A stretch of 64,000 nucleotides of DNA from Candidatus Multivoradales bacterium. GTDB taxonomy: Bacteria; Acidobacteriota; Thermoanaerobaculia; Multivoradales; JAHEKO01. Made by a program: the position numbers and the translations under genes. Below the pieces are notes generated by a model, which made no database searches, was not told the DNA's origin, and worked only from the letters and a program-made list of their open reading frames with translations. Shown piece after piece: positions 44,967-54,491 of this stretch; within the stretch, counting starts at the first letter, position 1, and the number at the start of each line of letters is the position of its first letter. The DNA lies in contig CBDCXM010000008.1 of NCBI GenBank assembly GCA_965223855.1, forward strand, positions 576,001-640,000. The letters run 5' to 3'.

Positions 44967-45946
44967 CTTCCCCCGAGCACCCGGCGCAGCGACGCCTGAT
45001 CGATGTTGCCACCGCTGAGGTAGACGGCCACCGTTGTGCCCGAGAGGCGCTCGCCGAGGCGCCTCACCCCCGCGACGCCACACGCCCCGCCCCCCTCGAC
45101 CAGGTTGTGGGTCGTCTCGAGCAGCAGCCGGATCGCCGCGGCGATCTCGCCCTCCTCGACGGTGACGAAGTCGGCCAATCCCTCCTGCAGTCGCGGGAAG
45201 GTGCCGTAGACGTCTCCTGTGGCCAGCCCGTCGGCGAGCGTCTCGCCGACCGGTCTCGGCGTCCGTCGCCCGGCGTGCCAGGAGTCGTGGAGCGTCGGTG
45301 CGGCCGCGGCCTGGACGCCGTAGACCGGGACCGTGGGCGCGAGCGCCCCGGTGACCGTCAACGCACCCACCGCCTGAGAGCCGCCACCGGCGGAGAGGAC
45401 GAACGCCTCTACCTCCGGGGCCTCGCGCAGCACCTCCAGAGCGATGGTGGCGGCCCCGGCCAGGACCCCTTCGTGATCGGTCGAGTGCACGAAGGTCGCG
45501 CCCCTCTCATCTCGAATCTCCAGCGCCTTCTCGAGCGACTCGTCATAGGTGGCGCCGCTCACGACGAGCTCGGCTCCCAGCGCCTCCATCGCGCGATTCT
45601 TCTCCGGGTTGTTGCCATGCGGCACGCAGACGACCACCGGCACCCCGGCCCGTGCACACGCCCAGGCGAGTCCCTGGCCGTGGTTGCCGCGGGTGGCCGT
45701 GACGAGCCCTCGAGAGCGCTCGGCGGCGTCGAGGAGCGACAGGGCGACGATGCCGTTGCGGACCTTGAACGAGTTGGTCGGCTGGTGATTCTCGTGCTTG
45801 ACCAGCAAGCGGACGCCGTGCCCGACCGCTTCGTCGAGCAGCGGGTAGTTCCTCAACGGCGTCGGCGGCAGCAGCTCGCGGATCACCCGCTCCGCCGCCT
45901 CTACGGCTTCGAAGTCGAGCGCGAGAGCCGCGGCCGGATCACTCAC
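44963..45946 (-). CDS. Threonine/serine dehydratase (fold-type II PLP enzyme)
   Basis: 'PTPL', 'KHENHQPTNSFKVRNG', 'TRGNHGQG', 'SAGGGS', 'LSGGN'. Confidence 0.92.
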   Translation of the reverse strand: MSDPAAALALDFEAVEAAERVIRELLPPTPLRNYPLLDEAVGHGVRLLVKHENHQPTNSFKVRNGIVALSLLDAAERSRGLVTATRGNHGQGLAWACARAGVPVVVCVPHGNNPEKNRAMEALGAELVVSGATYDESLEKALEIRDERGATFVHSTDHEGVLAGAATIALEVLREAPEVEAFVLSAGGGSQAVGALTVTGALAPTVPVYGVQAAAAPTLHDSWHAGRRTPRPVGETLADGLATGDVYGTFPRLQEGLADFVTVEEGEIAAAIRLLLETTHNLVEGGGACGVAGVRRLGERLSGTTVAVYLSGGNIDQASLRRVLGGS

Positions 45947-46859
45947 CCGCCGCCGCCTCCCTCTCGCTCACGATCGAATCGTAGAGAAAGGCGACCACGG
46001 CATCCGGCGGCAGGAACGAAGTCCACTCCTCGTCCCACGGTGCGGTCGGCTTGGCGGCGATCACCTCTTCGCGGCTCTTGCCGGCCGCGACGAGCGGGCT
46101 GATGGCGTCGTGAAGCTCCTGCATCAACGCCCTGTAGGCCACCAGGTCCGCCTTCGTCGACAGCGGTCCATGACCGGGAATGATCCGTGTCTCGTCGTCG
46201 ATCATCCCGAGCACCGCGTCGGCGTGGCGGATCATCCCGGCGAGGGTGCCTCCGGTGCCGACGTCGATGAACGGGTACATCCCGGCGAACATCGTGTCGC
46301 CGAGGTGAACGACGTTGTCCTCCACGAAGTGAACGATCGAATCGCCGTCGGTGTGGGCGCTGCCCTCGAGGTGGAGAATGCGGATCGTGCGGCCGTCGAG
46401 GTGGAAGGTCATCGACTCACGGAACGTCAGCGCCGGCTTGGCGACTTCGGGGGCCGCGTCGGTCCGCATGTCGAACGTCTCGATGTACTGCGGCGCCGAC
46501 ATCTTCTCGCGCACGTTCTCGTGGCCGACGATCCACACCCCCGCCTGACCGAGGTTCTCGTTGCCGCCGGTGTGATCGCCGTGCCAGTGCGTGTTGAGGA
46601 CGAAGTCGATCGGCCGGTCGGTCACCGCTGCGACCGCCTCGAGGATCGCCTCCGTCGCCGGCGCGTACTGGTCGTCGATCAGGAACGTCGCCGACGGGCC
46701 GACGGCGAGGCCGATGTTGCCGCCTCTGCCGGCGAGCATGTAGATCCCCTCCGCCACCTCCTCGGTCGTGATCTCCGGCGCCTCCTGGCCGAAGGCCGCC
46801 GTCGCCGGAACTGTCGCCAGAACGAGAGTCGAAACCGCTGCTGCGAAACTTCGCTTCAT
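45939..46859 (-). CDS. Secreted MBL-fold metallo-hydrolase (cyclase-like)
   Basis: 'GGNIG', 'NTHWHGDHTGGN', 'AHTDGD', 'IIPGHG'; signal peptide. Confidence 0.9.
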   Translation of the reverse strand: MKRSFAAAVSTLVLATVPATAAFGQEAPEITTEEVAEGIYMLAGRGGNIGLAVGPSATFLIDDQYAPATEAILEAVAAVTDRPIDFVLNTHWHGDHTGGNENLGQAGVWIVGHENVREKMSAPQYIETFDMRTDAAPEVAKPALTFRESMTFHLDGRTIRILHLEGSAHTDGDSIVHFVEDNVVHLGDTMFAGMYPFIDVGTGGTLAGMIRHADAVLGMIDDETRIIPGHGPLSTKADLVAYRALMQELHDAISPLVAAGKSREEVIAAKPTAPWDEEWTSFLPPDAVVAFLYDSIVSEREAAAGE

Positions 46860-47116
46860 TGTGCACTCCTCCTGCGCCGATCATAGAGCCTGCCGTCGCC
46901 GCCTGCAGCCCACCCTCCATAAACAGCGATCAGTAAAGAGAATTTCGGCTGCGTCTGGAGCGTTTGACAAGCCCCGCCCGATCCTCCAACATACCCTCCA
47001 TGCGAAGAATCCACGTTCCCGACAATGTGGCAACCACCGACGGATCAGGGCGGTCCGCGGGGTTGGGCGAGGTGGGGCTCGCCATCAAGGGGTACGCCCA
47101 GAAAGGAGGTGGTCCT

Positions 47117-47161
47117 GTGGAGTTACATCAACCAGGTTTTGTGGAGGTGGCGACCCGTTAG
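47117..47161 (+). CDS. Putative 14-aa peptide MELHQPGFVEVATR
   Basis: AAAGGAGGT Shine-Dalgarno 6 nt upstream of GTG; the stop codon lies in a hairpin loop. Confidence 0.4.
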   Translation: MELHQPGFVEVATR

Positions 47162-47238
47162 CGGGTACCTCCAACGCCTCCGTGGTTCTGGAGCCCCGTG
47201 ATTCGCGGGAAACCCCTCGCCACCGAGACAAACCAAGG

Positions 47239-47270
47239 AAGCCCCGGCCGGAAACGGCCGGGGCTTTTCT
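47239..47270 (+). terminator. Rho-independent terminator
   Basis: gccccggccg-gaaa-cggccggggc followed by ttttct. Confidence 0.85.
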
Positions 47271-47279
47271 CGTTCCGGG

Positions 47280-47732
47280 CTAACGGTCCAGGAGAGACCG
47301 GATCTCGACCGGACCCTGGACGACGGCATGATCGTAGGCCGTCAGGCCGTCGTGATCGCGAAGCCCCAGACTCGTGCCGTGGTCGAGCAGCAGGCCGATC
47401 GTCCGCACGAAGATCGGATGCACCCGCTCCGCTTCCAGTTCCCCGCACGCGATCACAGCGTGCATGAGGGCGGTCATGCCCGAATCGTCCTGAGCGTCGG
47501 GATCGGCACCGGCAGCCAGCAGGTCTGCAACGACGAGAGCCTGCCCCCAGAAGCTCGCGGCCATGAGGGCAGTCGTTCCGTCCTCGTCACAGGAATCGAC
47601 ACTCGCGCCTTCCGCAAGGAGCCGCCTCACGACCTTCCTGTCGCCAGACGATGCCGCATCGCACAGCTGCGAGCCGGAGGTGAACTGAGGAGTCGGAACC
47701 TCGACCGAGCGGAGACGCCGCTGAGCGGGCAT
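47280..47732 (-). CDS. Ankyrin repeat protein
   Basis: 'GTTALMAA', 'LLAAGADPDAQD..GMTALMHA', 'GLTAYD'. Confidence 0.88.
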   Translation of the reverse strand: MPAQRRLRSVEVPTPQFTSGSQLCDAASSGDRKVVRRLLAEGASVDSCDEDGTTALMAASFWGQALVVADLLAAGADPDAQDDSGMTALMHAVIACGELEAERVHPIFVRTIGLLLDHGTSLGLRDHDGLTAYDHAVVQGPVEIRSLLDR

Positions 47733-48152
47733 CTACTCGATCCAGCGCAGAGCGCCGCCTGAGTGGCGCCGGTCGCTGCCATGCCTGCCTCGGCGTGGCC
47801 CGGCGGGCCGGCGATCGTTCGGGCGTTGTGGAAGGGAGTTCCAGGTGTCGTCCCAGTCACCCTCGTCGGGAGATTCCCACTCGTCCTCGTCGCTGTCCCA
47901 GTCGTCCTCGTCCGAGTCACCTTCCGAGTCCTCGTCAGGGTCGTCCATCGGATCGTCGTCCCAGTCCTCGTCCTCGAACTCGGACTCGGACTCGGACTCG
48001 GACTCGGACTCGAGAACACTCGACTCTCCGATCGCCGGAGCACGGCCGCGAACGGCGATACCGGGCCAACCGATGCCGGGAAATCCGAAGGCCTCTTCCG
48101 CCTCTCCGGCACCGGTGCAGGTCGGTCGATCGACAACAAGCTTCATCACCAT
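47733..48152 (-). CDS. Highly acidic low-complexity protein
   Basis: AAGGAGG RBS before ATG 48152; (ES)n tract and D/E/W-rich segment; stop abuts the ankyrin start. Confidence 0.55.
   Translation of the reverse strand: MVMKLVVDRPTCTGAGEAEEAFGFPGIGWPGIAVRGRAPAIGESSVLESESESESESEFEDEDWDDDPMDDPDEDSEGDSDEDDWDSDEDEWESPDEGDWDDTWNSLPQRPNDRRPAGPRRGRHGSDRRHSGGALRWIE
47978..48012. repeat. Hexanucleotide tandem repeat (GACTCG), about 6 units
   Basis: Seen directly; encodes the Glu-Ser repeat on the minus strand. Confidence 0.85.
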
Positions 48153-48391
48153 CCGAGGCCTCCTTGTGCCTGGGGACGAAAGACCCGTTGAGGCGCTCAA
48201 CGCGTCTGTCTGAAACGCTGTCGCTGACGAGACGCTATGCCCCCATTCTCGGCCCTGTCAAGCGCTTCCTGGACAGCGGAATCCGGGGGCGAGCGGCCGC
48301 AAAACAAGGTGCAGGAGGCGGGTCGAGACCGCCACTCGCCGGAGAAGAGCGCTCAGGGGTTCCCGACGGAGCCGACCGCCAGCCTGCCGGT

Positions 48392-51300
48392 TCACTCCGA
48401 AGGCGACACGGTGATCTCGTCGCCCGCCGAGAAGGCGGCAAACTCGGGCGCGTACATCGACTGCAGCGTCGCCGGGCCGACCCGGAAGGTACCGCCGAGG
48501 TTCGCCCGCAGACGGTAGCGCAGCGTGTACTCGCCCACCGGCAGCCACTCGAAGAAGAAGTCGGTGCCGCTGTCGCGGACCTGCTCGTACCAGCCGACGC
48601 CCGTGCCCCAGCGGTAGCCGGAACGCACCGCCTCCGGTTCGAGACCCGCCGCCCGCGGATCGCGCAGGTGAACGTATTCTGCCGCGTGGCTCGCACGGAT
48701 CGACAGCTCGACCTCGACCTGGTCTCCCGGCTCGAGAGTGGCCCCCGCCTCGATCGGCTCCAGGCGCCACTCGGTGCCGTCATGCGTGCGTCGCCAGTAA
48801 CGGCGCTCGACACCGAAGAAGTCGCTCGACGCTTCCTCGGGCATCGTCTCGGTCGAGTAGTGCCAGGTCGCCGAGGCGAAAAGCAGCCCGGGGGTGTCCT
48901 TCGTCACCGTCACCCGACCGTGACCGGGAGTGACCGCTTCACCCGCCACCACCCACTGCTGCTTGGCCGTGTCCGGATCGTCGGGAAGGAAATCGAAGCT
49001 CCGGCGCTCGCCGGCCAGCTCGACCGTGGCACGCTCCTCGACTCCGAGCTCCCCCTCGGCGGAGAGGTAGTGAATCAGGGAGTAGAGCACCTCCGCCGTG
49101 GCGCGGGTCGACTTCCAGTGGCTGAGCTTCTTGTTGAGCAACAGCCAGTGAACGAGGCCACGGCGCCGGGGATCGTCGCCGTCGAGTTCGCCGAGGACCC
49201 TCAGTGCGAAGGCGTGGGTCTCGATGGAGTCGTTGTACCAGAGCCAGGCGCGCTCTTCCGGGGCCCAGTAGGTGCCGAGATCCTCGGACTCCTTCGCCGA
49301 GTCCATGACGCTGTCGAACACGAGGCGCGCATCGCCCGATCGACCGGCCCGCTCGAGGGTCAGTGCGAGCTGCCCCTTGATGAGAGGCGAGTGGTTCTTC
49401 CAGTGGCGGAACGAGAGTTCGAGCATCCGCTCGCGATCGGCGGCCGTGAACACACCCCCGGTCCAGCTCTCGTCCGGGTAGCTCGACAGGACGAAGTTGA
49501 GCATCGTCATCAGCTCGTGCCCCCGCTCCTGCTCCTCCAGTTCCGCAATGAAGCGATCGAAGTAGTGCCGCCTGAGATAGCCCCAGGCGGGCTCGACCAG
49601 CTCCCGCGGCACGTCGACCCCGAACTCGAGCGCTCTCGACAGGCCGCCGAGGATGTAGAGGGTCATGTAGGGCGAGGGCGGCCCGCCCGGCCACCAGGGG
49701 AAGCCGCCGATCGCCGTCTGCGACTCGGTCAGCCGCGCCAGCGCCGCGTCCCGTTCTGCGCGGGCCACTTCGGGATCGAGAAGCCGGATGAGCCGCTCGT
49801 CGCCCGCCGCGCCTCCGGCGGCCGCGCCCAGCCACGGTGTCTCGACGAGCGCCATCGAGCGATTCGGATCGTCTCGATCCCACGGCTCGAGCCGGGTGTC
49901 GCGTTCGCTCAACCGGCGGCCGAGCTCGGCAACGAGCGGATGTGCTTCGAACACCTCGCGCACGATCCCGGTCGAAACGAAGCGGTTGAGCGTCTGCTCG
50001 GTGCACTCGTAGGGAAAATCGACCAGATACGGGAGCGCCGAGAGCACCGACTGAAAGAGCTGGCCGTCGAGGGTGACGACGAACTGTTCGTCGACTCGCG
50101 TCGCGTCACCGCCCTCCGCCAGAGCGGCGAACTCGAGCAGTCGCTCGGCGGTGCCGTCGAGCGCCGCGAAGCGCGACTCGATCAGGTGCACCCGCCCGGG
50201 CAGGAGCGGCAGCGGCCGCAGCTCGCCGTCGCTCCAGTCGCCGGCGGTGCCGACGGCGCGCACGGCCACCTCGCCGACGCCGTTGGGGGCCGCCACCGGC
50301 AGTGAGAACGTCTCGGCTTCTCCGGGGCCGAGCGCGAACGGAAGGTCGCTGCGCCGCGGCCCGTCGAGGTCGAACGCCGCCGCCACGCTCTCCTCGGTCT
50401 CGGGATCGAGAAGGTCGAAGTCCAGCCGGCCGGAGAGCGCCGACTCGCCGCTGTTCTGCACGACAACCCGCAGCTCGGCTCGATCGCCCTCCCTGAGGAA
50501 CCGTGGCAAGTACGGCCTTACCAGCAGATCCTTGGTCGTCCTCACCTGGCGCTCGAGCCGGCCGTAGTCGAGCTCCGTCGTCAGAGCGTGCACCCACACG
50601 CTCCACTCGGTCACCGAGTCGGGCACGGTGAACTCGAAGACGACCGAGCCGTCTTCGCCCGTCAGCAGGTGCGGCTCCCAGAAGGCGGTCTCCGAGAAGT
50701 CGGTGCGCAGTTCGGGTGCACCGGCATCGGTAGCTCCATCCTCCTCGATCTGCCCGCGCTCCGCCTCCCCGTCTGCCAGGTAGCCCAGCGCCTCGACGCC
50801 GTCCGACTGAGCCGCTACTTCCATCATCGCAGCGGGTGCTTCCACCGCCATCGGCGTCGGTGGTCCTCCCGCCCGGGCGAGCCGCCGGCCGGGCCCCCCG
50901 ATGCCGTAGTCATCGAACGCCTTCAAGCGATCGTCGCGGTAGTACGGCCGATCGGGAAGCGGCGACCAACCCTTCTCCCAGCGCAGCACCGGGTGCTGCG
51001 AGCCGAGCCCGCTCTGCCAGGCGTCGAGCCTCGCTCCCGTCCTGGCGAACGGAGCCGGCCGCGGCGGGGTGTGCGAGGCGAACAGATCGAGACTGCGGTC
51101 GAACATGTAGGCCAAGAGCTCCGCCGCCGCGGTGCCGAGAGACTCGCCGTCCGCGGTGGCCACCTCGATCCGCCAACGTTCTTCGTCTCCGGGCCGGAGC
51201 CGATCGCGGAAGGTCGAGAAACTCAGGCGGAGATCCTCGTCGCGCGGCGGCACCGCGACATGGGCGGTCATCGACAGCGGCTGGTAGTCGCGAACGGAGC

Positions 51301-54300
51301 GGAGCCGGAACTGCAGGCCGCCGACGTCCTCGGTCCCGACAGGCAGCTCGATCGTCTCGGGGTTCGGTCCCGCCTCGAAGTAGCGCACTTCCGGCTGCCG
51401 GCCGGGCCGGGCGATCTCGAGCGCCAGCCACTGCCCGGGGAAACCGGAGTGCACCAGGATCCTCGCCCGTTCTCCCACCGGCACCGTCCGGCGCTCGCTC
51501 TCGAGCAGCAGGGGGAGCGGCAGCGCGGCGTCGCCCGCGACGACAAACTCGACGCTGCGCTCGAAAGTCGAGCCGAAGGCGTCGTCGGTCGCGTAGTGGA
51601 GGCGGTAGGCACCGGCAACGAGGTCCGCCAGGGAGAGGACGGTAGCCCCGTCCTCGCCATGCTCGACGACGCCCGAAGAGTGCTCCGCTCCGTCGTCCCA
51701 CGAGCTGAGCATCCGCCCCGGCTGGAGTCCCGAATCCCAACGGGGTCGGAGCTCATCTCCCTCGGTCCTGTAGTCGCCCTGCCCGGCGACCGGCATGTCG
51801 GTGGGCAGACGGGTGTCGTCGGGCTGGTCCAGAGCGACGAGCCGCCAACGCGCCGACCCCGCTCGCGCCACCCCGTCGAGGTCGGAACGCAGGATCCGGT
51901 AACTCATCGAACCGCCGGCGCCCCCACTCACCGTCGCGAATGCCCGCTCGGCAGTGAGGGTCGCCTCGACCGTGGTGAAGCCGAGGGTGAACGTCCGCTC
52001 GGCGGATCGGGTCTCGCCGCCGGCATCGGTGGCGTCGACCGACAGCCGGTAGCGGAAGCGGAGCCCTTCGCCCGCCTTGCGCTCGTCCGCCTCCGGCAGG
52101 AAGGTGACGGTGAACGCGCCGTCGGCATCGAGCGCTGCGACTCCGCCGGCCACCGTCTCGCGCTGGCCGACCGGCTGCGGACGCCACCAGCCCCACCAGT
52201 CCGGGTAGCGCGGCTCGCGGGTCACCGTCCAGCGGATCTCGCCGTCCACCAGTGGAGCGCCAAAGTAGTAGCGCGCTTCGCCGGCGAAGGTCGCCGTCCG
52301 GTTGAGCCGCAGCTCGGCCTCAGGCTCCTCGACGGTCACCTCGAAGGTGGGCCGCTTGTACTCCTCCACCTTCACCGGCGCCGAACCGTTCGGGGTCGCA
52401 CGCAACTGCCAGTCGCCGAGAAGCCTCCCCTGAGGCAGTTCGAAGCTGCCGGAGGCGCTGCCGAAGGAGTTGGCCTCGACGGTCGTGCTCGCCACAACCT
52501 CCCAGTTGGCATCCACCAGCTCGACGGTGATCTGGGAGCCCGGCAGCACGGTCTGGCGCTCCTCGGCCTCGACTCGCCGATAGGCGACCGCTTTCCACAG
52601 CACCTGCTGCCCCGGTCGGTAGACGCTGCGATCGGTGAAGAGGAGCACCTGCTCGGTGTCGCGAAGCCGCGGGGAGTACTCCGCGCGCAGCGAGACCTGC
52701 TGGAAGGCCAGCTCCTCACCGTGGCGGGCCACCAGCATGGCTGCGGCCCCTCGACTGGCCTTATGGACGAAGCGGGCGGCGCCCTCGTGGTCCGTCTCGC
52801 GGGCCGTCTGACGCCGGTGCCCGCGCCGGTAGTCGAGGCCCCAAAGCTCGACCTCGGCCCCCTCGACTGGATCGCCGCTCGCGCCGTCGCGCACCTCCGC
52901 CACGGTCAGCCCGGCGCGGCTCACGGAGTCGAGGACGATCGCGCTGCGGATCCAGTGGACCGCCTCGACCCGGTTGCGCCGGCGCGAGAAGGAGCGATCG
53001 GCCGAGGCCGCCACGAGCCACAGCCCGGGACGCGAAGAGGGAGGGACGACGTAGGTCTGATGCATCTCGAGGTCGGGCGTGGCCGGCAGATCGACCTCCC
53101 ACTCGAAGTCCGGCTTCGCACCGATGAGCCGGTCCTCGACCTCACGGCGCCCCGGGAGGAGCGAACGGTCGAGCCCCTCGGTAAGCGCCTCTTCGAGGTC
53201 GACCCACCAGGCCCGGAAGAACAGGCGGTCGAGATTGCGATGACGCACCAGGATCGAGCGCCGCTCGGGACCATCGACCAACATCGACTGGAGCGAGAAC
53301 GAAGGCGCCTCGAGCGCCGCGACAAGGTGGCGGCAATAACGTCCGCCGAAGCTGTCGGGATGGACGGCGGCCCCTTCCGCAGCGAGATCGCGGGCTCGCG
53401 CAAGGGCATCGTCTGCGCCGGAGTCGCGCGTCCATTCGGCCAGCAACGCCCGGCCCGTCGACCACCATTCGACGTCGCGACCGAGCCGCCCGAGGGCTCC
53501 CTCGAGGTCCGCCCGCAGCGCCTGCCGCTCCTCGGCCGAACTGAAGTGTGCCGCGAGCGCCTGCAGACGCGCCATCCGGGCATCGAGAGCGGCTTCCCCG
53601 CGGCCGCCCTCGAGGTGCCAGCGCTCCAGGTCGCCATAGAGCGCTGCAAGTCGAGCGAGCGGATGATCGTCGGTTGCGGCTCGGCCGGCGATCAACGCCT
53701 CGAGGTCGAGCCGATGGATCTGGTTCGAGTCGCTCGCGGACCAGTGAGCAGAGTTGGCCAGGAAGCCCGCCCACAGATGGGTTACCGAATCGCGCAGCGT
53801 GCCGCGAATGCGCTTCGGGAGATCGTTGGGCTCGAGGGTCCCCGCAAGGTCGGAGGTCGGCTCCAGCCCCCACGACTCCCGGTCCACCCACAGACTGAGG
53901 AAGGCATCGTCGATTTCGGCCGCCAGCTGCGCGCTCGTCCAGCGGGTGAAGTCGAGATCCCGGCGCTCACCACTGCGCTCCCGCTGACCGATCTCCCAGC
54001 CGTAGCGGCCGAGGTAGAGAACGAGCGTCTGCGCCCGCAGGAGTGCGCGAGCCCGGCTCGCTGCACCGACCTGGCCGGCCGTGCCGGTCGGCTCTGGCCA
54101 CGCGGCCGACTCCACCAACCGCACCGCTCCCTCGAACTCGCCGAGCGACGCGGTGAGCTGAGCCTCGCGCACCAGGGCGCGCGCCCAGTCGTCCTCGAGG
54201 CCGGCGGCAGCCGCAGCCTCGCGCAGCCGGCCGAGCTCCTCGACGGCAGCCTGGTGTTTCTGCTCCTCCACCAGGCGATCGACCGTCTGCCAGCGCTCCT

Positions 54301-54427
54301 CCAGGCTCATCGATCCCGACGGCTCCGGCGCCGCCGCGTGGCCGCTGCCGCAGCCCGCCGCCAACGCGGCCATGAGGGCGACGAAGCCCGTCGCCAGGAT
54401 GAAACTCCTCTGTCGGTTCTGCCGCAT
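48392..54427 (-). CDS. Bacterial alpha-2-macroglobulin family lipoprotein (about 2010 aa)
   Basis: Lipobox 'LAAGC'; MG2 'FTDRSVYRPGQ', 'VEEYKRPTFEV', 'RTDFSETAFW.P.L', 'PRFLREGD', thioester 'CTEQ', C-terminal 'MYAPEF'. Confidence 0.93.
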   Translation of the reverse strand: MRQNRQRSFILATGFVALMAALAAGCGSGHAAAPEPSGSMSLEERWQTVDRLVEEQKHQAAVEELGRLREAAAAAGLEDDWARALVREAQLTASLGEFEGAVRLVESAAWPEPTGTAGQVGAASRARALLRAQTLVLYLGRYGWEIGQRERSGERRDLDFTRWTSAQLAAEIDDAFLSLWVDRESWGLEPTSDLAGTLEPNDLPKRIRGTLRDSVTHLWAGFLANSAHWSASDSNQIHRLDLEALIAGRAATDDHPLARLAALYGDLERWHLEGGRGEAALDARMARLQALAAHFSSAEERQALRADLEGALGRLGRDVEWWSTGRALLAEWTRDSGADDALARARDLAAEGAAVHPDSFGGRYCRHLVAALEAPSFSLQSMLVDGPERRSILVRHRNLDRLFFRAWWVDLEEALTEGLDRSLLPGRREVEDRLIGAKPDFEWEVDLPATPDLEMHQTYVVPPSSRPGLWLVAASADRSFSRRRNRVEAVHWIRSAIVLDSVSRAGLTVAEVRDGASGDPVEGAEVELWGLDYRRGHRRQTARETDHEGAARFVHKASRGAAAMLVARHGEELAFQQVSLRAEYSPRLRDTEQVLLFTDRSVYRPGQQVLWKAVAYRRVEAEERQTVLPGSQITVELVDANWEVVASTTVEANSFGSASGSFELPQGRLLGDWQLRATPNGSAPVKVEEYKRPTFEVTVEEPEAELRLNRTATFAGEARYYFGAPLVDGEIRWTVTREPRYPDWWGWWRPQPVGQRETVAGGVAALDADGAFTVTFLPEADERKAGEGLRFRYRLSVDATDAGGETRSAERTFTLGFTTVEATLTAERAFATVSGGAGGSMSYRILRSDLDGVARAGSARWRLVALDQPDDTRLPTDMPVAGQGDYRTEGDELRPRWDSGLQPGRMLSSWDDGAEHSSGVVEHGEDGATVLSLADLVAGAYRLHYATDDAFGSTFERSVEFVVAGDAALPLPLLLESERRTVPVGERARILVHSGFPGQWLALEIARPGRQPEVRYFEAGPNPETIELPVGTEDVGGLQFRLRSVRDYQPLSMTAHVAVPPRDEDLRLSFSTFRDRLRPGDEERWRIEVATADGESLGTAAAELLAYMFDRSLDLFASHTPPRPAPFARTGARLDAWQSGLGSQHPVLRWEKGWSPLPDRPYYRDDRLKAFDDYGIGGPGRRLARAGGPPTPMAVEAPAAMMEVAAQSDGVEALGYLADGEAERGQIEEDGATDAGAPELRTDFSETAFWEPHLLTGEDGSVVFEFTVPDSVTEWSVWVHALTTELDYGRLERQVRTTKDLLVRPYLPRFLREGDRAELRVVVQNSGESALSGRLDFDLLDPETEESVAAAFDLDGPRRSDLPFALGPGEAETFSLPVAAPNGVGEVAVRAVGTAGDWSDGELRPLPLLPGRVHLIESRFAALDGTAERLLEFAALAEGGDATRVDEQFVVTLDGQLFQSVLSALPYLVDFPYECTEQTLNRFVSTGIVREVFEAHPLVAELGRRLSERDTRLEPWDRDDPNRSMALVETPWLGAAAGGAAGDERLIRLLDPEVARAERDAALARLTESQTAIGGFPWWPGGPPSPYMTLYILGGLSRALEFGVDVPRELVEPAWGYLRRHYFDRFIAELEEQERGHELMTMLNFVLSSYPDESWTGGVFTAADRERMLELSFRHWKNHSPLIKGQLALTLERAGRSGDARLVFDSVMDSAKESEDLGTYWAPEERAWLWYNDSIETHAFALRVLGELDGDDPRRRGLVHWLLLNKKLSHWKSTRATAEVLYSLIHYLSAEGELGVEERATVELAGERRSFDFLPDDPDTAKQQWVVAGEAVTPGHGRVTVTKDTPGLLFASATWHYSTETMPEEASSDFFGVERRYWRRTHDGTEWRLEPIEAGATLEPGDQVEVELSIRASHAAEYVHLRDPRAAGLEPEAVRSGYRWGTGVGWYEQVRDSGTDFFFEWLPVGEYTLRYRLRANLGGTFRVGPATLQSMYAPEFAAFSAGDEITVSPSE

Positions 54428-54491
54428 CGTCGCCTCCACCGAGTTAGACCCACCAGAGTGACGAAACGAAACCGCCGGGCCCGAGTCGTCG

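What the first reader, a model, noticed from the sequence alone, without database searches (positions are those of the whole stretch)
46964..47270. Stand-alone structured RNA with a 14-codon ORF and a sequestered, very strong Shine-Dalgarno
Seen: TTGACA at 46964; AGAAAGGAGGTGGTCC (close to the full complement of a 16S 3' end) 6 nt before GTG; ORF MELHQPGFVEVATR; a second GGAGGT closing a hairpin around the stop codon (47142-47173); a GAAA-tetraloop terminator. Ordered 5'-3' pairing: ggaggt 47105/gcctcc 47176, ccagaa 47098/ttctgg 47186, gggg 47089/cccc 47194, atca 47084/tgat 47199, ctcgc 47078/gcggg 47205, ggcgagg 47066/cctcgcc 47215. No downstream co-oriented gene exists, so it is not an attenuator leader. 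Known: type I toxin mRNAs hide their SD through 5'-3' pairing; 6S RNA is a long rod with a central bubble; Csr/Rsm sponges show repeated GGA. Inference: an unannotated sRNA, sORF or ribosome-binding RNA.
Basis: partly seen in the sequence, partly recalled or inferred. Interest (0 to 1): 0.7.

Follow-up and report, generated by a model that had tools for sequence, protein, structure and literature searches.

The report
Conserved small RNA with mini-ORF
This gap between two genes encodes a small, intricately folded RNA, conserved across several bacterial phyla, that carries a tiny 14-codon reading frame behind an ideal ribosome-binding site and probably works by engaging ribosomes rather than by making a useful peptide.

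Summary
Real and conserved. Window ~47000-47273 (+) is a stand-alone gene for a ~270-nt RNA: a conserved TTGACA promoter, a 5' domain, a Shine-Dalgarno matching the whole free 3' tail of the genome's own 16S rRNA, a GUG-started 14-codon ORF, a three-hairpin junction and an intrinsic terminator. I collected 82 non-redundant relatives (records labelled Acidobacteriota, Krumholzibacteriia, Eisenbacteria, Latescibacterota, Gemmatimonadetes, Fibrobacteres). It is single-copy and has no conserved neighbour.

- **ORF:** 81 of 82 keep an in-frame ORF of 12-16 codons. None starts with AUG. The stop lies 9 or 12 nt after an invariant internal GGAGGUG.
- **Fold:** ORF codons 7-13 pair with the segment just before the terminator.
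- **Rfam:** no family reaches its threshold. The RNA is a distant relative of the actinobacterial orphan sRNA Ms_IGR-5, which has the same mini-ORF, internal SD and spacing. It also resembles CC2171.
- **6S RNA:** it lies elsewhere in the genome.
- **Expression:** relatives occur in metatranscriptome contigs of four studies.

Function is unknown. My best reading is a ribosome-operated RNA switch in which translation, not the peptide, matters. I class it as a new variant of a poorly understood kind.

The parts
46964..46969 (+). -35 promoter box TTGACA
   Evidence: Invariant in 5 of 5 same-genus sequences. An exact TTGACA lies 55-85 nt upstream of the model start in 46 of 80 family loci, against 2 of 78 control stretches. 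All 46 have nAnnnT 16-19 nt downstream.
46987..46992 (+). -10-like box CAACAT, 17 nt after the -35 box. The transcription start is inferred near 46999-47001.
   Evidence: CAnnAT recurs at this spacing across the family. The start site is inferred, not mapped.
47011..47030 (+). 5' leader hairpin (CCACGTT...AATGTGG), conserved only within the genus
   Evidence: Predicted in the MFE fold. Conserved in 4 of 5 genus sequences.
47031..47065 (+). P1 (47031-37 with 47059-65) enclosing hairpin P1a (47042-45 with 47053-56)
   Evidence: P1 is paired in 87.9% of cells and all 7 of its pairs show double changes. P1a is paired in 83.2% and all 4 pairs show double changes. Coordinates.
47048..47052 (+). PK1 5' strand (GGGCG, in the P1a loop). 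It pairs with CGCCC at 47095-47099, just upstream of the SD.
   Evidence: 89.2% paired against 24-50% when slid. 18 double-change cells against 8.2 in shuffles (0 of 500 shuffles reach it).
47066..47083 (+). P2 hairpin (GGCGAG / CTCGCC, loop GTGGGG)
Evidence: 99.4% paired and all 6 pairs show double changes (15 sequences at one pair).
47095..47099 (+). PK1 3' strand (CGCCC)
47100..47115 (+). SD1: 16-nt complement of the 3' end of the organism's 16S rRNA
   Evidence: 16S 3' end read. AGGAGGTG-TCC is invariant in the 76-sequence alignment.
47117..47161 (+). Mini-ORF: GTG start, 14 codons, TAG stop
   Evidence: 81 of 82 have an in-frame ORF of 12-16 codons; starts are GUG 66 and UUG 16. SD1-to-start spacing is 5 nt in 77 of 82.
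47135..47142 (+). P6 5' strand (inside the ORF). It pairs with 47228-47234.
   Evidence: cognate duplexes average -7.76 kcal/mol against -5.98 for non-cognate ones. 0 of 5000 permutations are as low. Compensatory examples appear.
47143..47149 (+). SD2: internal GGAGGTG, 9 nt before the stop
   Evidence: Identical in 82 of 82 (65 of the 85 loci were found with a pattern that demands it, 20 were not). SD2-to-stop spacing is 9 nt in 74 and 12 nt in 7 of 82.
47146..47153 (+). P3 5' strand GGTGGCGA (ORF codons 10-13). It pairs with TCGCCACC at 47217-47224.
   Evidence: 98.3% paired. The closing pair shows 19 double changes.
47154..47165 (+). P4 hairpin with the stop codon in its loop (CCCG TTAG CGGG)
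   Evidence: Read directly from the sequence. Family support is 77.6% paired with 2 pairs showing double changes. The model alignment is offset by 1 nt for this sequence.
47167..47193 (+). P4b/P4c region. CTCC (47169-72) pairs with GGAG (47190-93) around a loop that holds CCTCCGTGG. It is variable in the family.
   Evidence: P4b is paired in 81.8% of cells with all 5 pairs showing double changes; P4c is paired in 77.9%. This window's sequence aligns poorly here. CCUCC occurs within 32 nt after the stop in 35 of 82.
47195..47209 (+). P5 hairpin (CCCG...CGGG)
   Evidence: 83.2% paired and all 4 pairs show double changes. Coordinates read by eye.
47213..47216 (+). Candidate PK2 strand CCCC, facing the P2 loop GGGG at 47074-47077
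   Evidence: 79% paired. A few compensatory cases exist, but the statistics are weak (35 of 500 shuffles reach the covariation score).
47217..47224 (+). P3 3' strand TCGCCACC
47228..47234 (+). P6 3' strand (ACAAACC)
47239..47275 (+). Intrinsic terminator: 12-bp stem, GAAA loop, T-rich tail
   Evidence: (hairpin): 98.4% paired, with 8 of 9 pairs showing double changes. The T-rich tail on the + strand is in the family consensus.

Best explanation
The interval is the gene of a stand-alone, roughly 270-nt, highly structured RNA. A sigma-70-type promoter drives it and an intrinsic terminator ends it. It belongs to a single-copy family found in parts of Acidobacteriota and in several other phyla, and it is a distant relative of the actinobacterial orphan sRNA Ms_IGR-5.

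Shown:
- A 5' domain of P1, P1a and P2, plus a pseudoknot whose 3' strand abuts the SD.
- An SD that complements the entire free 3' tail of the 16S rRNA.
- A mini-ORF whose frame, length, non-AUG start and stop position are conserved. Its amino acids are conserved only where RNA constraints explain them.
- ORF codons 7-13 form one strand of a long helix (P6+P3). The partner strand lies just before the terminator. This helix closes a three-hairpin junction, and the first hairpin carries the stop codon in its loop.
- An invariant internal SD-like GGAGGUG lies 9 nt before the stop.

Inferred mechanism:
- The RNA is operated by ribosomes. A 30S subunit binds the ideal SD, which may also shield the RNA from decay.
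- A translating ribosome has to unzip P6, P3 and P4.
- When the stop codon reaches the A site, the ribosome's anti-SD can re-pair with the internal SD at initiation-like spacing: 6 nt to the P-site codon, against 5 nt at the start.
- Translation would therefore switch the RNA from a closed form to an open form that frees its conserved 3' strand.
- On this reading the act of translation is the signal, and the peptide is a by-product.

What the open or closed RNA acts on is unknown.
For: Conservation and copy number:
- One copy in the own genome.
- BLAST matches in 22 of 40 other genomes of the order.
- The covariance model matches 23 of 150 other sampled genomes of the phylum, one match each.

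Promoter: (46 of 80 loci against 2 of 78 controls).

ORF:
- 81 of 82 are in frame.
- All distances from the start codon to SD2 equal 2 modulo 3, even though the lengths vary (20, 23, 26, 29 and 32 nt). Shifts of the start codon compensate for this.

RNA-level rather than peptide-level constraint:
- GAG-GUG never varies synonymously in the 82 sequences, nor in 27-28 of the 29 public actinobacterial loci.
- In the codon before GAG only the third base is fixed.
- The first base of the codon after GCG covaries with its P3 partner, with 19 double changes.

Fold:
- 90.4% of cells are paired, against 80.0% in shuffles and 42-55% when slid.
- 40 of 50 pairs show double changes.
- P6 is supported and PK1.

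Strand: G.U pairs are frequent on the + strand, and the T-rich terminator tail is on the + strand.

Kinship with Ms_IGR-5:
- The alignment.
- This locus is the best RF02471 hit in the whole genome.
- A Solirubrobacterales locus matches both models: 27.8 bits to RF02471 and 20 bits, E 2e-4, to my model.
- Actinobacterial members share the ORF length, the GAGGUG-9 nt-stop spacing and a P3-like pairing.

Expression: contigs 88-92% alike that cover 47041-47227 occur in 4 of 4 metatranscriptome runs laid, from 4 studies.

Known precedent: ribosomes initiating at a strong SD block RNase J1. I saw only the listing and the start of the abstract of PMC5737220.
Against: - No ribosome profiling, toeprint or mapped RNA ends exist for any member. 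Translation is inferred only from conservation of the frame.
- RNA-library contigs can include DNA, and one of them (555 nt) runs past both predicted ends.
- One of the 82 sequences (L006) has its stop 1 nt out of frame.
- Thermodynamic folding predicts SD1 mostly paired in 75 of 82 sequences (mean unpaired probability 0.31). The partners are inconsistent: upstream in 53, downstream in 15, within the ORF in 14. SD accessibility is therefore not settled.
- The counts were made on an alignment fitted to the structure.
- Sixty-five of the 85 loci were found with a pattern that requires both SD motifs. Their invariance is therefore partly by construction; the 20 loci found by BLAST also have both motifs.
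- No target, partner or phenotype is known, and the open/closed switch is a model.
- The family is patchy (0 of 11 and 0 of 8 in some families), so it is not a core translation component.
Confidence: 0.45

Rival explanations
1. It is simply the mRNA of a functional micropeptide of 12-16 residues whose conserved C-terminal part is ...E-V-A-(S/T/A)-x. The RNA structure serves only stability and expression.
For: The frame is conserved in 81 of 82. E-V is invariant in both phyla. The SD is very strong and so is the promoter.
Against: - Across two phyla there is no synonymous change in GAG-GUG, which is what an RNA motif predicts.
- The N-terminal two thirds of the peptide is variable.
- Residue changes after the Ala track a base-pairing partner.
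- No modification or export genes lie nearby.
- Two pseudoknot candidates and a five-helix fold are more than an mRNA needs.
Confidence: 0.15
2. It is a non-translated or barely translated RNA that uses its two SD-like sites to bind and hold 30S subunits or ribosomes. It would be a ribosome sponge or a stabiliser tag on a base-pairing sRNA, and the ORF would matter only as a spacer.
For: - The SD covers the whole 16S tail.
- The start codon is never AUG in the 82 sequences. In 7 of 29 actinobacterial loci it is CUG.
- The second SD is invariant.
- PK1 abuts the SD and could stack on the SD/anti-SD helix. This stacking is inferred.
- Precedent exists for strong-SD-bound ribosomes protecting RNA (start of the abstract of PMC5737220).
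Against: A pure binding site would not need an in-frame stop at a fixed distance, nor indels in multiples of three. SD2 is half buried in P3 unless something, such as a ribosome, opens it.
Confidence: 0.15
3. The SD is hidden by an ordered 5'-3' rod, as in type I toxin mRNAs or a 6S-like rod, and the RNA is activated by processing.
For: The pairings exist in this sequence and dominate its MFE fold. SD1 has an unpaired probability of 0.008 here.
Against: - The rod is not conserved.
- It conflicts with P2 and P3.
- 6S RNA is elsewhere in the genome.
- The peptide is polar and too short for a membrane toxin, as the sequence shows directly.
- No Rfam toxin or antitoxin family matches.
Confidence: 0.04
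4. It is a cis-acting leader or attenuator, or the 3' UTR or terminator region, of a neighbouring gene.
For: In 8 of 82 loci a roughly 480-aa GAF-PAS histidine kinase gene follows on the same strand, 6-51 nt away. The hairpin could also terminate the convergent ankyrin gene.
Against: There is no conserved neighbour. The RNA has its own conserved promoter. A terminator with a T tail on the + strand is present in every member. In this window both neighbours are on the opposite strand.
Confidence: 0.04

Closest known systems
Ms_IGR-5 (Rfam RF02471), actinobacterial sRNA of unknown function
   Same: - An extended SD of the same kind.
- An ORF of 12-14 codons ending ...E-V-(A/T/V)-x-x-stop.
- GAGGUG exactly 9 nt before the stop.
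- A GGUG(G/A)C... segment pairing with ...CACC just before an intrinsic terminator.
- Single copy and stand-alone.

These points rest. One Solirubrobacterales locus matches both models.
   Different: - The score is 20.2 bits against a gathering score of 45.
- The acidobacterial type adds a roughly 100-nt 5' part (leader, P1, P1a, P2, PK1). The Rfam model begins a few bases before the SD.
- The junction hairpins differ.
- AUG and CUG starts occur in Actinomycetota but not in this family.
- Rfam's consensus structure does not mark the P3 pairing. I read that pairing by eye in the actinobacterial sequences and did not test it statistically.
CC2171 (Rfam RF01867), alphaproteobacterial sRNA of unknown function
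   Same: - Nineteen bases of SD plus GUG are nearly identical.
- The first codons pair with the segment just before the terminator, closing a three-hairpin junction (Rfam consensus).
- It is a stand-alone gene.
- Expression was shown by Northern blot in Methylorubrum, and the RNA was first found in Caulobacter (passages of bioRxiv 10.1101/2022.01.24.477521).
   Different: - 31.7 bits against a gathering score of 75. The score comes from the SD and the terminator only.
- The ORFs in the two examples read are 20 and 28 codons long and lack the GAGGUG-9 nt-stop arrangement.
- Homology is not shown. The shared SD may be convergence on the universal 16S tail.
Strong-SD 5' stabilisers of Gram-positive mRNAs (ribosome-bound SD that blocks RNase J1)
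   Same: An SD with unusually long complementarity to the 16S tail lies near the 5' end of a stable RNA. A bound ribosome would shield the RNA (PMC5737220, listing and start of abstract only; the rest is recalled).
   Different: Those elements sit in the leaders of ordinary mRNAs. Here the SD serves a conserved mini-ORF in an RNA that has no other cargo.
Regulatory leader peptides and dual-function sRNAs with small ORFs
   Same: The ORF is short, and it is the translation rather than the product that seems to matter. The ORF overlaps a helix that a ribosome must open.
   Different: There is no downstream gene to regulate. There is no run of a particular amino acid. No base-pairing target is known.

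Membership tests
Ms_IGR-5 (RF02471) | Score at or above Rfam's gathering score (45 bits) | tested here: not met
   20.2 bits. It is still the best RF02471 hit in the 4.5-Mb genome, E 0.033.
Ms_IGR-5 (RF02471) | Extended SD followed by an ORF of 12-14 codons with GAGGUG 9 nt before the stop. These features I derived from members; Rfam does not state them. | tested here: met
   Window. Actinobacterial members: 19 of 29 public loci passed a filter. I read 8 or 9 of the remaining 10 by eye and they show the same. Three loci from unpublished genomes were left out.
Ms_IGR-5 (RF02471) | RNA begins just upstream of the SD, with no 5' domain | tested here: inconclusive
   The Rfam model starts about 8 nt before the SD. 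The window's RNA has about 100 nt before the SD. No transcription start is mapped in either.
CC2171 (RF01867) | Score at or above Rfam's gathering score (75 bits) | tested here: not met
   31.7 bits, aligned only at SD/GUG and the terminator.
6S RNA (RF00013) | Match to the 6S covariance model (a rod with a central bubble) | tested here: not met
   No hit in the window. The genome's 6S RNA is at C9:1925766-1925953, 84.6 bits.
Type I toxin mRNA | Hydrophobic membrane peptide | tested here: not met
   The peptides are 12-16 residues long, polar and variable.
Type I toxin mRNA | Conserved 5'-3' pairing that hides the SD | tested here: not met
   58.1% paired against 57.3% in shuffles.
Type I toxin mRNA | Antisense RNA antitoxin | not testable with these tools
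   Only contigs of RNA runs were available. They carry no strand information.
Transcription attenuator / leader peptide | A co-oriented downstream gene under its control | tested here: not met
   A same-strand downstream gene is present in only 8 of 82 loci.
Csr/Rsm-titrating sRNA | Many GGA motifs displayed in hairpin loops, and a match to a known family | tested here: not met
   No Rfam match. The GGA motifs here are the two SDs and one stem strand.
Intrinsic terminator | G+C-rich stem-loop followed by a U tract on the transcribed strand | tested here: met
   (98.4% paired; 8 of 9 pairs with double changes).

The most novel reading that the evidence does not exclude
Ms_IGR-5 in Actinomycetota, this family in Acidobacteriota and allied phyla, and perhaps CC2171 in Alphaproteobacteria together form a cross-phylum class of stand-alone 'ideal-SD mini-ORF RNAs'. 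On this reading they act on the translation machinery itself. Each RNA would capture a ribosome at a weak start codon through a full-length anti-SD duplex, and capture it again at the stop codon through a second SD placed at initiation-like spacing. The RNA would thus read out or buffer initiation and termination capacity, for example IF3 or release-factor activity or free 30S subunits. It would be neither a base-pairing sRNA nor a peptide gene.
Probability: 0.2. Interest if true: 0.85.

Novelty: new variant of a known kind. Interest (0 to 1): 0.64.

Why it matters
- It adds a well-supported structured RNA family, with about 50 base pairs plus pseudoknot candidates, in poorly studied phyla where almost no small RNAs are known.
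- It gives two orphan Rfam families a shared and testable anatomy: an ideal SD, a weak start, a mini-ORF locked in a helix, and a second SD at a fixed 9 nt from the stop.
- If ribosomes operate the RNA as proposed, this would be an RNA whose only cargo is its own translation. That points to a simple cellular gauge of ribosome or translation-factor availability.
- The actinobacterial relatives occur in cultivable laboratory species, so the idea can be tested directly.

Tried and rejected
**Rfam and known RNA classes**
- Rfam found nothing at gathering thresholds in the window. The E-value mode gave only sub-threshold hits.
- The other RF01867 and RF02471 sub-threshold hits in the genome are chance. 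One is a chaperonin gene's Gly-Met tail plus its terminator.
- 6S RNA is rejected.

**Structure tests**
- PK2 (P2 loop with the CCC strand) has suggestive individual compensations, but the counting test is weak. I keep it only as a candidate.
- An alternative hairpin of SD2 with the CCUCC after the stop is possible here. CCUCC is present in only 35 of 82 sequences.
- The model alignment of the variable middle (P4-P5) is imprecise for this window's own sequence. I set those coordinates by eye.

**Context and expression**
- No conserved neighbour was found. The flanking genes are unrelated to translation: metallo-beta-lactamase fold, ankyrin, PLP enzyme, and a histidine kinase in some relatives.
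- The consensus promoter scan with default rules found none. The conserved TTGACA/CAnnAT pair was found only by comparison.
- Parts of the stretch without cover in the RNA contigs say nothing.

**Literature**
- Searches found no description of a mini-ORF in Ms_IGR-5 or CC2171, and none of an acidobacterial RNA of this kind.
- This covers only the held library.
- The original Ms_IGR-5 paper is not held.
They may list such sRNAs or ribosome-profiling ORFs.

- I ran no protein-database searches, because a 14-residue peptide is below their limits.
Full report
**What is in the sequence**

The 420-nt gap at 46860-47279 lies between two minus-strand genes. One encodes a metallo-beta-lactamase-fold protein (45939-46859) and the other an ankyrin-repeat protein (47280-47732).

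- TTGACA at 46964.
- The 16-mer AGAAAGGAGGTGGTCC at 47100-47115.
- GTG at 47117.
- A 14-codon ORF ending in TAG at 47159-47161.
- A second GGAGGT at 47143.
- A GAAA-loop hairpin at 47239-47266 with a T-rich tail.

The genome's own 16S rRNA ends in ...CUGGAUCACCUCCUUUCU. The 16-mer therefore complements its last 16 bases with one G.U pair, which is the whole single-stranded tail plus two bases. Long SDs are not unique in this genome. A 13-mer version with at most one mismatch occurs 19 times.

**It is a conserved gene**

The element occurs once in the genome. BLAST finds it in 22 of 40 other genomes of the same order, and the conserved part is 47048-47270.

A profile search showed that 65 of those 112 belong to the family. 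The other 47 are chance matches inside ordinary genes. Together with the 20 BLAST loci, and after dropping three duplicates, this gave 82 non-redundant members.

The record titles of the named members read Thermoanaerobaculia, Vicinamibacterales, Holophagales, other Acidobacteriota, Krumholzibacteriia, Eisenbacteria, Latescibacterota, Gemmatimonadetes and Fibrobacteres. Two low-scoring members are labelled Rickettsiales and one Verrucomicrobiia. These are labels as deposited.

In an even sample of the window's phylum, my covariance model matched 23 of 150 other genomes. Each had exactly one match. The distribution is clade-wise: families at 5 of 5 and 6 of 6, others at 0 of 11 and 0 of 8 (stricter filters may lose weak matches).

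No neighbouring gene is conserved. The largest cluster of flanking proteins covers 12 of 82 loci. In 8 loci a GAF-PAS histidine kinase gene follows on the same strand.

**Promoter and terminator**

TTGACA is invariant in 5 of 5 same-genus sequences and is followed by a CAACAT/CAAGAT box. Across the family, an exact TTGACA lies 55-85 nt upstream of the model start in 46 of 80 loci. The figure for control stretches 330-400 nt upstream is 2 of 78. All 46 have nAnnnT 16-19 nt downstream.

The transcript should start near 47000 and end near 47273. Every member ends in a covarying hairpin with a T-rich tail on the + strand.

**The mini-ORF**

- 81 of 82 members have an ORF of 12-16 codons in the same frame. 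The breakdown is 14 codons in 55, 15 in 13, 13 in 9, 12 in 3 and 16 in 1. L006 has its stop one base out of frame.
- The start codon is GUG in 66 and UUG in 16, and never AUG. It lies 5 nt after GGAGGUG in 77 of 82.
- Length changes come in threes. Where the distance between the two SDs is off by one or two bases, the start codon is shifted to keep the frame.
- The stop lies 9 nt (74 sequences) or 12 nt (7 sequences) after an invariant internal GGAGGUG.
- Stops are UAG in 49, UAA in 25 and UGA in 7. Long ORFs of the own genome, by contrast, end in TGA 67%, TAG 29.5% and TAA 3.3% of the time.

The peptide is conserved only as ...E-V-A-(S/T/A/P)-x, and RNA features explain that conservation:
- GAG-GUG-GCG never varies at the third codon positions.
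- In the codon before GAG only the third base is fixed.
- The first base of the codon after GCG covaries with a pairing partner.

I conclude that a ribosome's passage and its stopping place are under selection, and the peptide sequence is not.

**The fold**

RNAalifold and a hand-built structure were re-aligned with a covariance model. All 82 sequences match it, at 49.7-231 bits (54 of them were seeds).
- 90.4% of cells are paired, against 80.0% in shuffles (0 of 500 shuffles reach the observed value) and 42-55% with slid partners.
- 40 of 50 pairs show double changes. The caveat is that the alignment was fitted to the structure.

The helices are:
- P1 and P1a (47031-47065).
- P2 (47066-47083).
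- P3, GGUGGCGA 47146-53 with UCGCCACC 47217-24.
- P4, with the stop codon in its loop.
- P4b/c.
- P5.
- The terminator.

Further elements were not in the model:
- **PK1** pairs the P1a loop with the CGCCC that abuts the SD. It is paired in 89.2% of cells, against 24-50% when slid.
- **P6** pairs ORF bases 47135-42 with 47228-34. Cognate duplexes average -7.76 kcal/mol against -5.98 for non-cognate ones, and 0 of 5000 permutations are as low.
- **PK2** is a weaker candidate.

Codons 7-13 are thus one strand of a long helix whose partner sits just before the terminator.

It also uses bases of P2 and P3.

Thermodynamic folding predicts SD1 paired in 75 of 82 sequences, but with inconsistent partners. 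This window's own SD1 is predicted tightly paired, with an unpaired probability of 0.008. That may be a local peculiarity.

**Relatives among known families**

No Rfam family reaches its threshold. The two best sub-threshold hits are CC2171 (31.7 bits) and Ms_IGR-5 (20.2 bits). Each is the best hit of its model in the whole genome.

The Ms_IGR-5 alignment runs through SD1, the ORF, GAGGUGGC, the stop, the 3' strand and the terminator.

Actinobacterial members were taken from 36 of 121 sampled genomes with a match, 17 of them above the cut-off. I read 29 public loci and left out three loci from unpublished genomes. They show:
- ORFs of 12-14 codons ending ...E-V-(A/T/V)-x-x-stop.
- GAGGUG 9 nt before the stop in 27 or 28 of the 29 loci.
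- Starts of UUG in 12, CUG in 7, AUG in 5 and GUG in 3, with 2 unclear (some read by eye).
- A GGUGGCUG/CAGUCACC-type pairing before the terminator, seen by eye in three sequences and in the Rfam consensus.

A Solirubrobacterales locus matches both RF02471 (27.8 bits) and my model (20 bits, E 2e-4).

I take the window's RNA to be a divergent branch of the same superfamily with an added 5' domain.

CC2171 shares the SD-GUG and the overall plan. Its ORFs are longer and lack the SD2-stop arrangement, so homology is open.

Both known families are orphans in function. From the literature I saw:
- CC2171 expression was shown by Northern blot, with "the condition affecting this sRNA ... not identified" (passages of bioRxiv 10.1101/2022.01.24.477521).
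- Ms_IGR-5 is listed as RNA-seq-validated in Streptomyces lividans (passages of PMC8079986).
- The original Ms_IGR-5 paper was not available.

**Expression**

Seven metatranscriptome runs hold a few words of the stretch. In 4 of the 4 runs that I laid, from 4 studies, contigs of 151-674 nt that are 88-92% alike cover 47041-47227 or part of it. One of them has a depth of 112.

These contigs come from close relatives. They show presence in RNA libraries. They do not show ends or strand, and they do not exclude DNA carry-over.

**Mechanism**

*Shown:* the anatomy described above.

*Inferred:*
- A 30S subunit binds the ideal SD. That SD could stack on PK1 and shield the RNA.
- Elongation must melt P6, P3 and P4.
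- With the stop codon in the A site, the internal SD lies 6 nt from the P-site codon. SD1 lies 5 nt from the start codon. The anti-SD could therefore hold the terminating ribosome.
- Translation would then toggle the RNA into an open form that frees the conserved 3' strand.

The target is unknown. They are weighed in their own sections.

**Verdict**

This is a real, unannotated and widespread structured RNA with a translated-looking mini-ORF. It is a new variant of an orphan kind.

Noticed in passing
G000:C9:1925766-1925953 (outside the window): The genome's 6S RNA: RF00013, 84.6 bits.
   Followed up: yes
L134 (G000:C9:214028-217040): An rRNA operon end: 16S rRNA, two tRNAs, and the start of 23S rRNA. 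I used it to read the 16S 3' tail.
   Followed up: yes
window 47159-47161 and family-wide: The mini-ORF stop codons are UAG or UAA in 74 of 81 sequences and UGA in 7. About two thirds of long ORFs in the genome end in TGA. The cause could be a loop constraint or release-factor-specific reading. It remains unexplained.
   Followed up: partly
L006:1491-1739: This is the only family member whose stop triplet sits one base out of frame, which gives a 54-codon read-through ORF. It may be a sequencing error or a true variant.
   Followed up: no
L114, L123, L054, L068, L053, L055: Some members carry insertions of about 30-90 nt inside the junction (the P4b region) or after P2. These positions therefore tolerate extra hairpins.
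   Followed up: no
L008:2-1483 (-) and 7 other relatives: A GAF-PAS histidine kinase gene follows the RNA on the same strand, 6-51 nt after the terminator, in 8 of 82 loci.
   Followed up: partly
window 47795-50305 (+) and 48392-54439 (-): Two very long overlapping ORFs lie on opposite strands: 836 aa, with no Pfam match, and 2015 aa. I did not settle which of them is the real gene.
   Followed up: no
G000:C9:1980835-1980982: The second-best CC2171-like hit is the Gly-Met-rich 3' end of a chaperonin-like gene plus its terminator. It is a chance match.
   Followed up: yes
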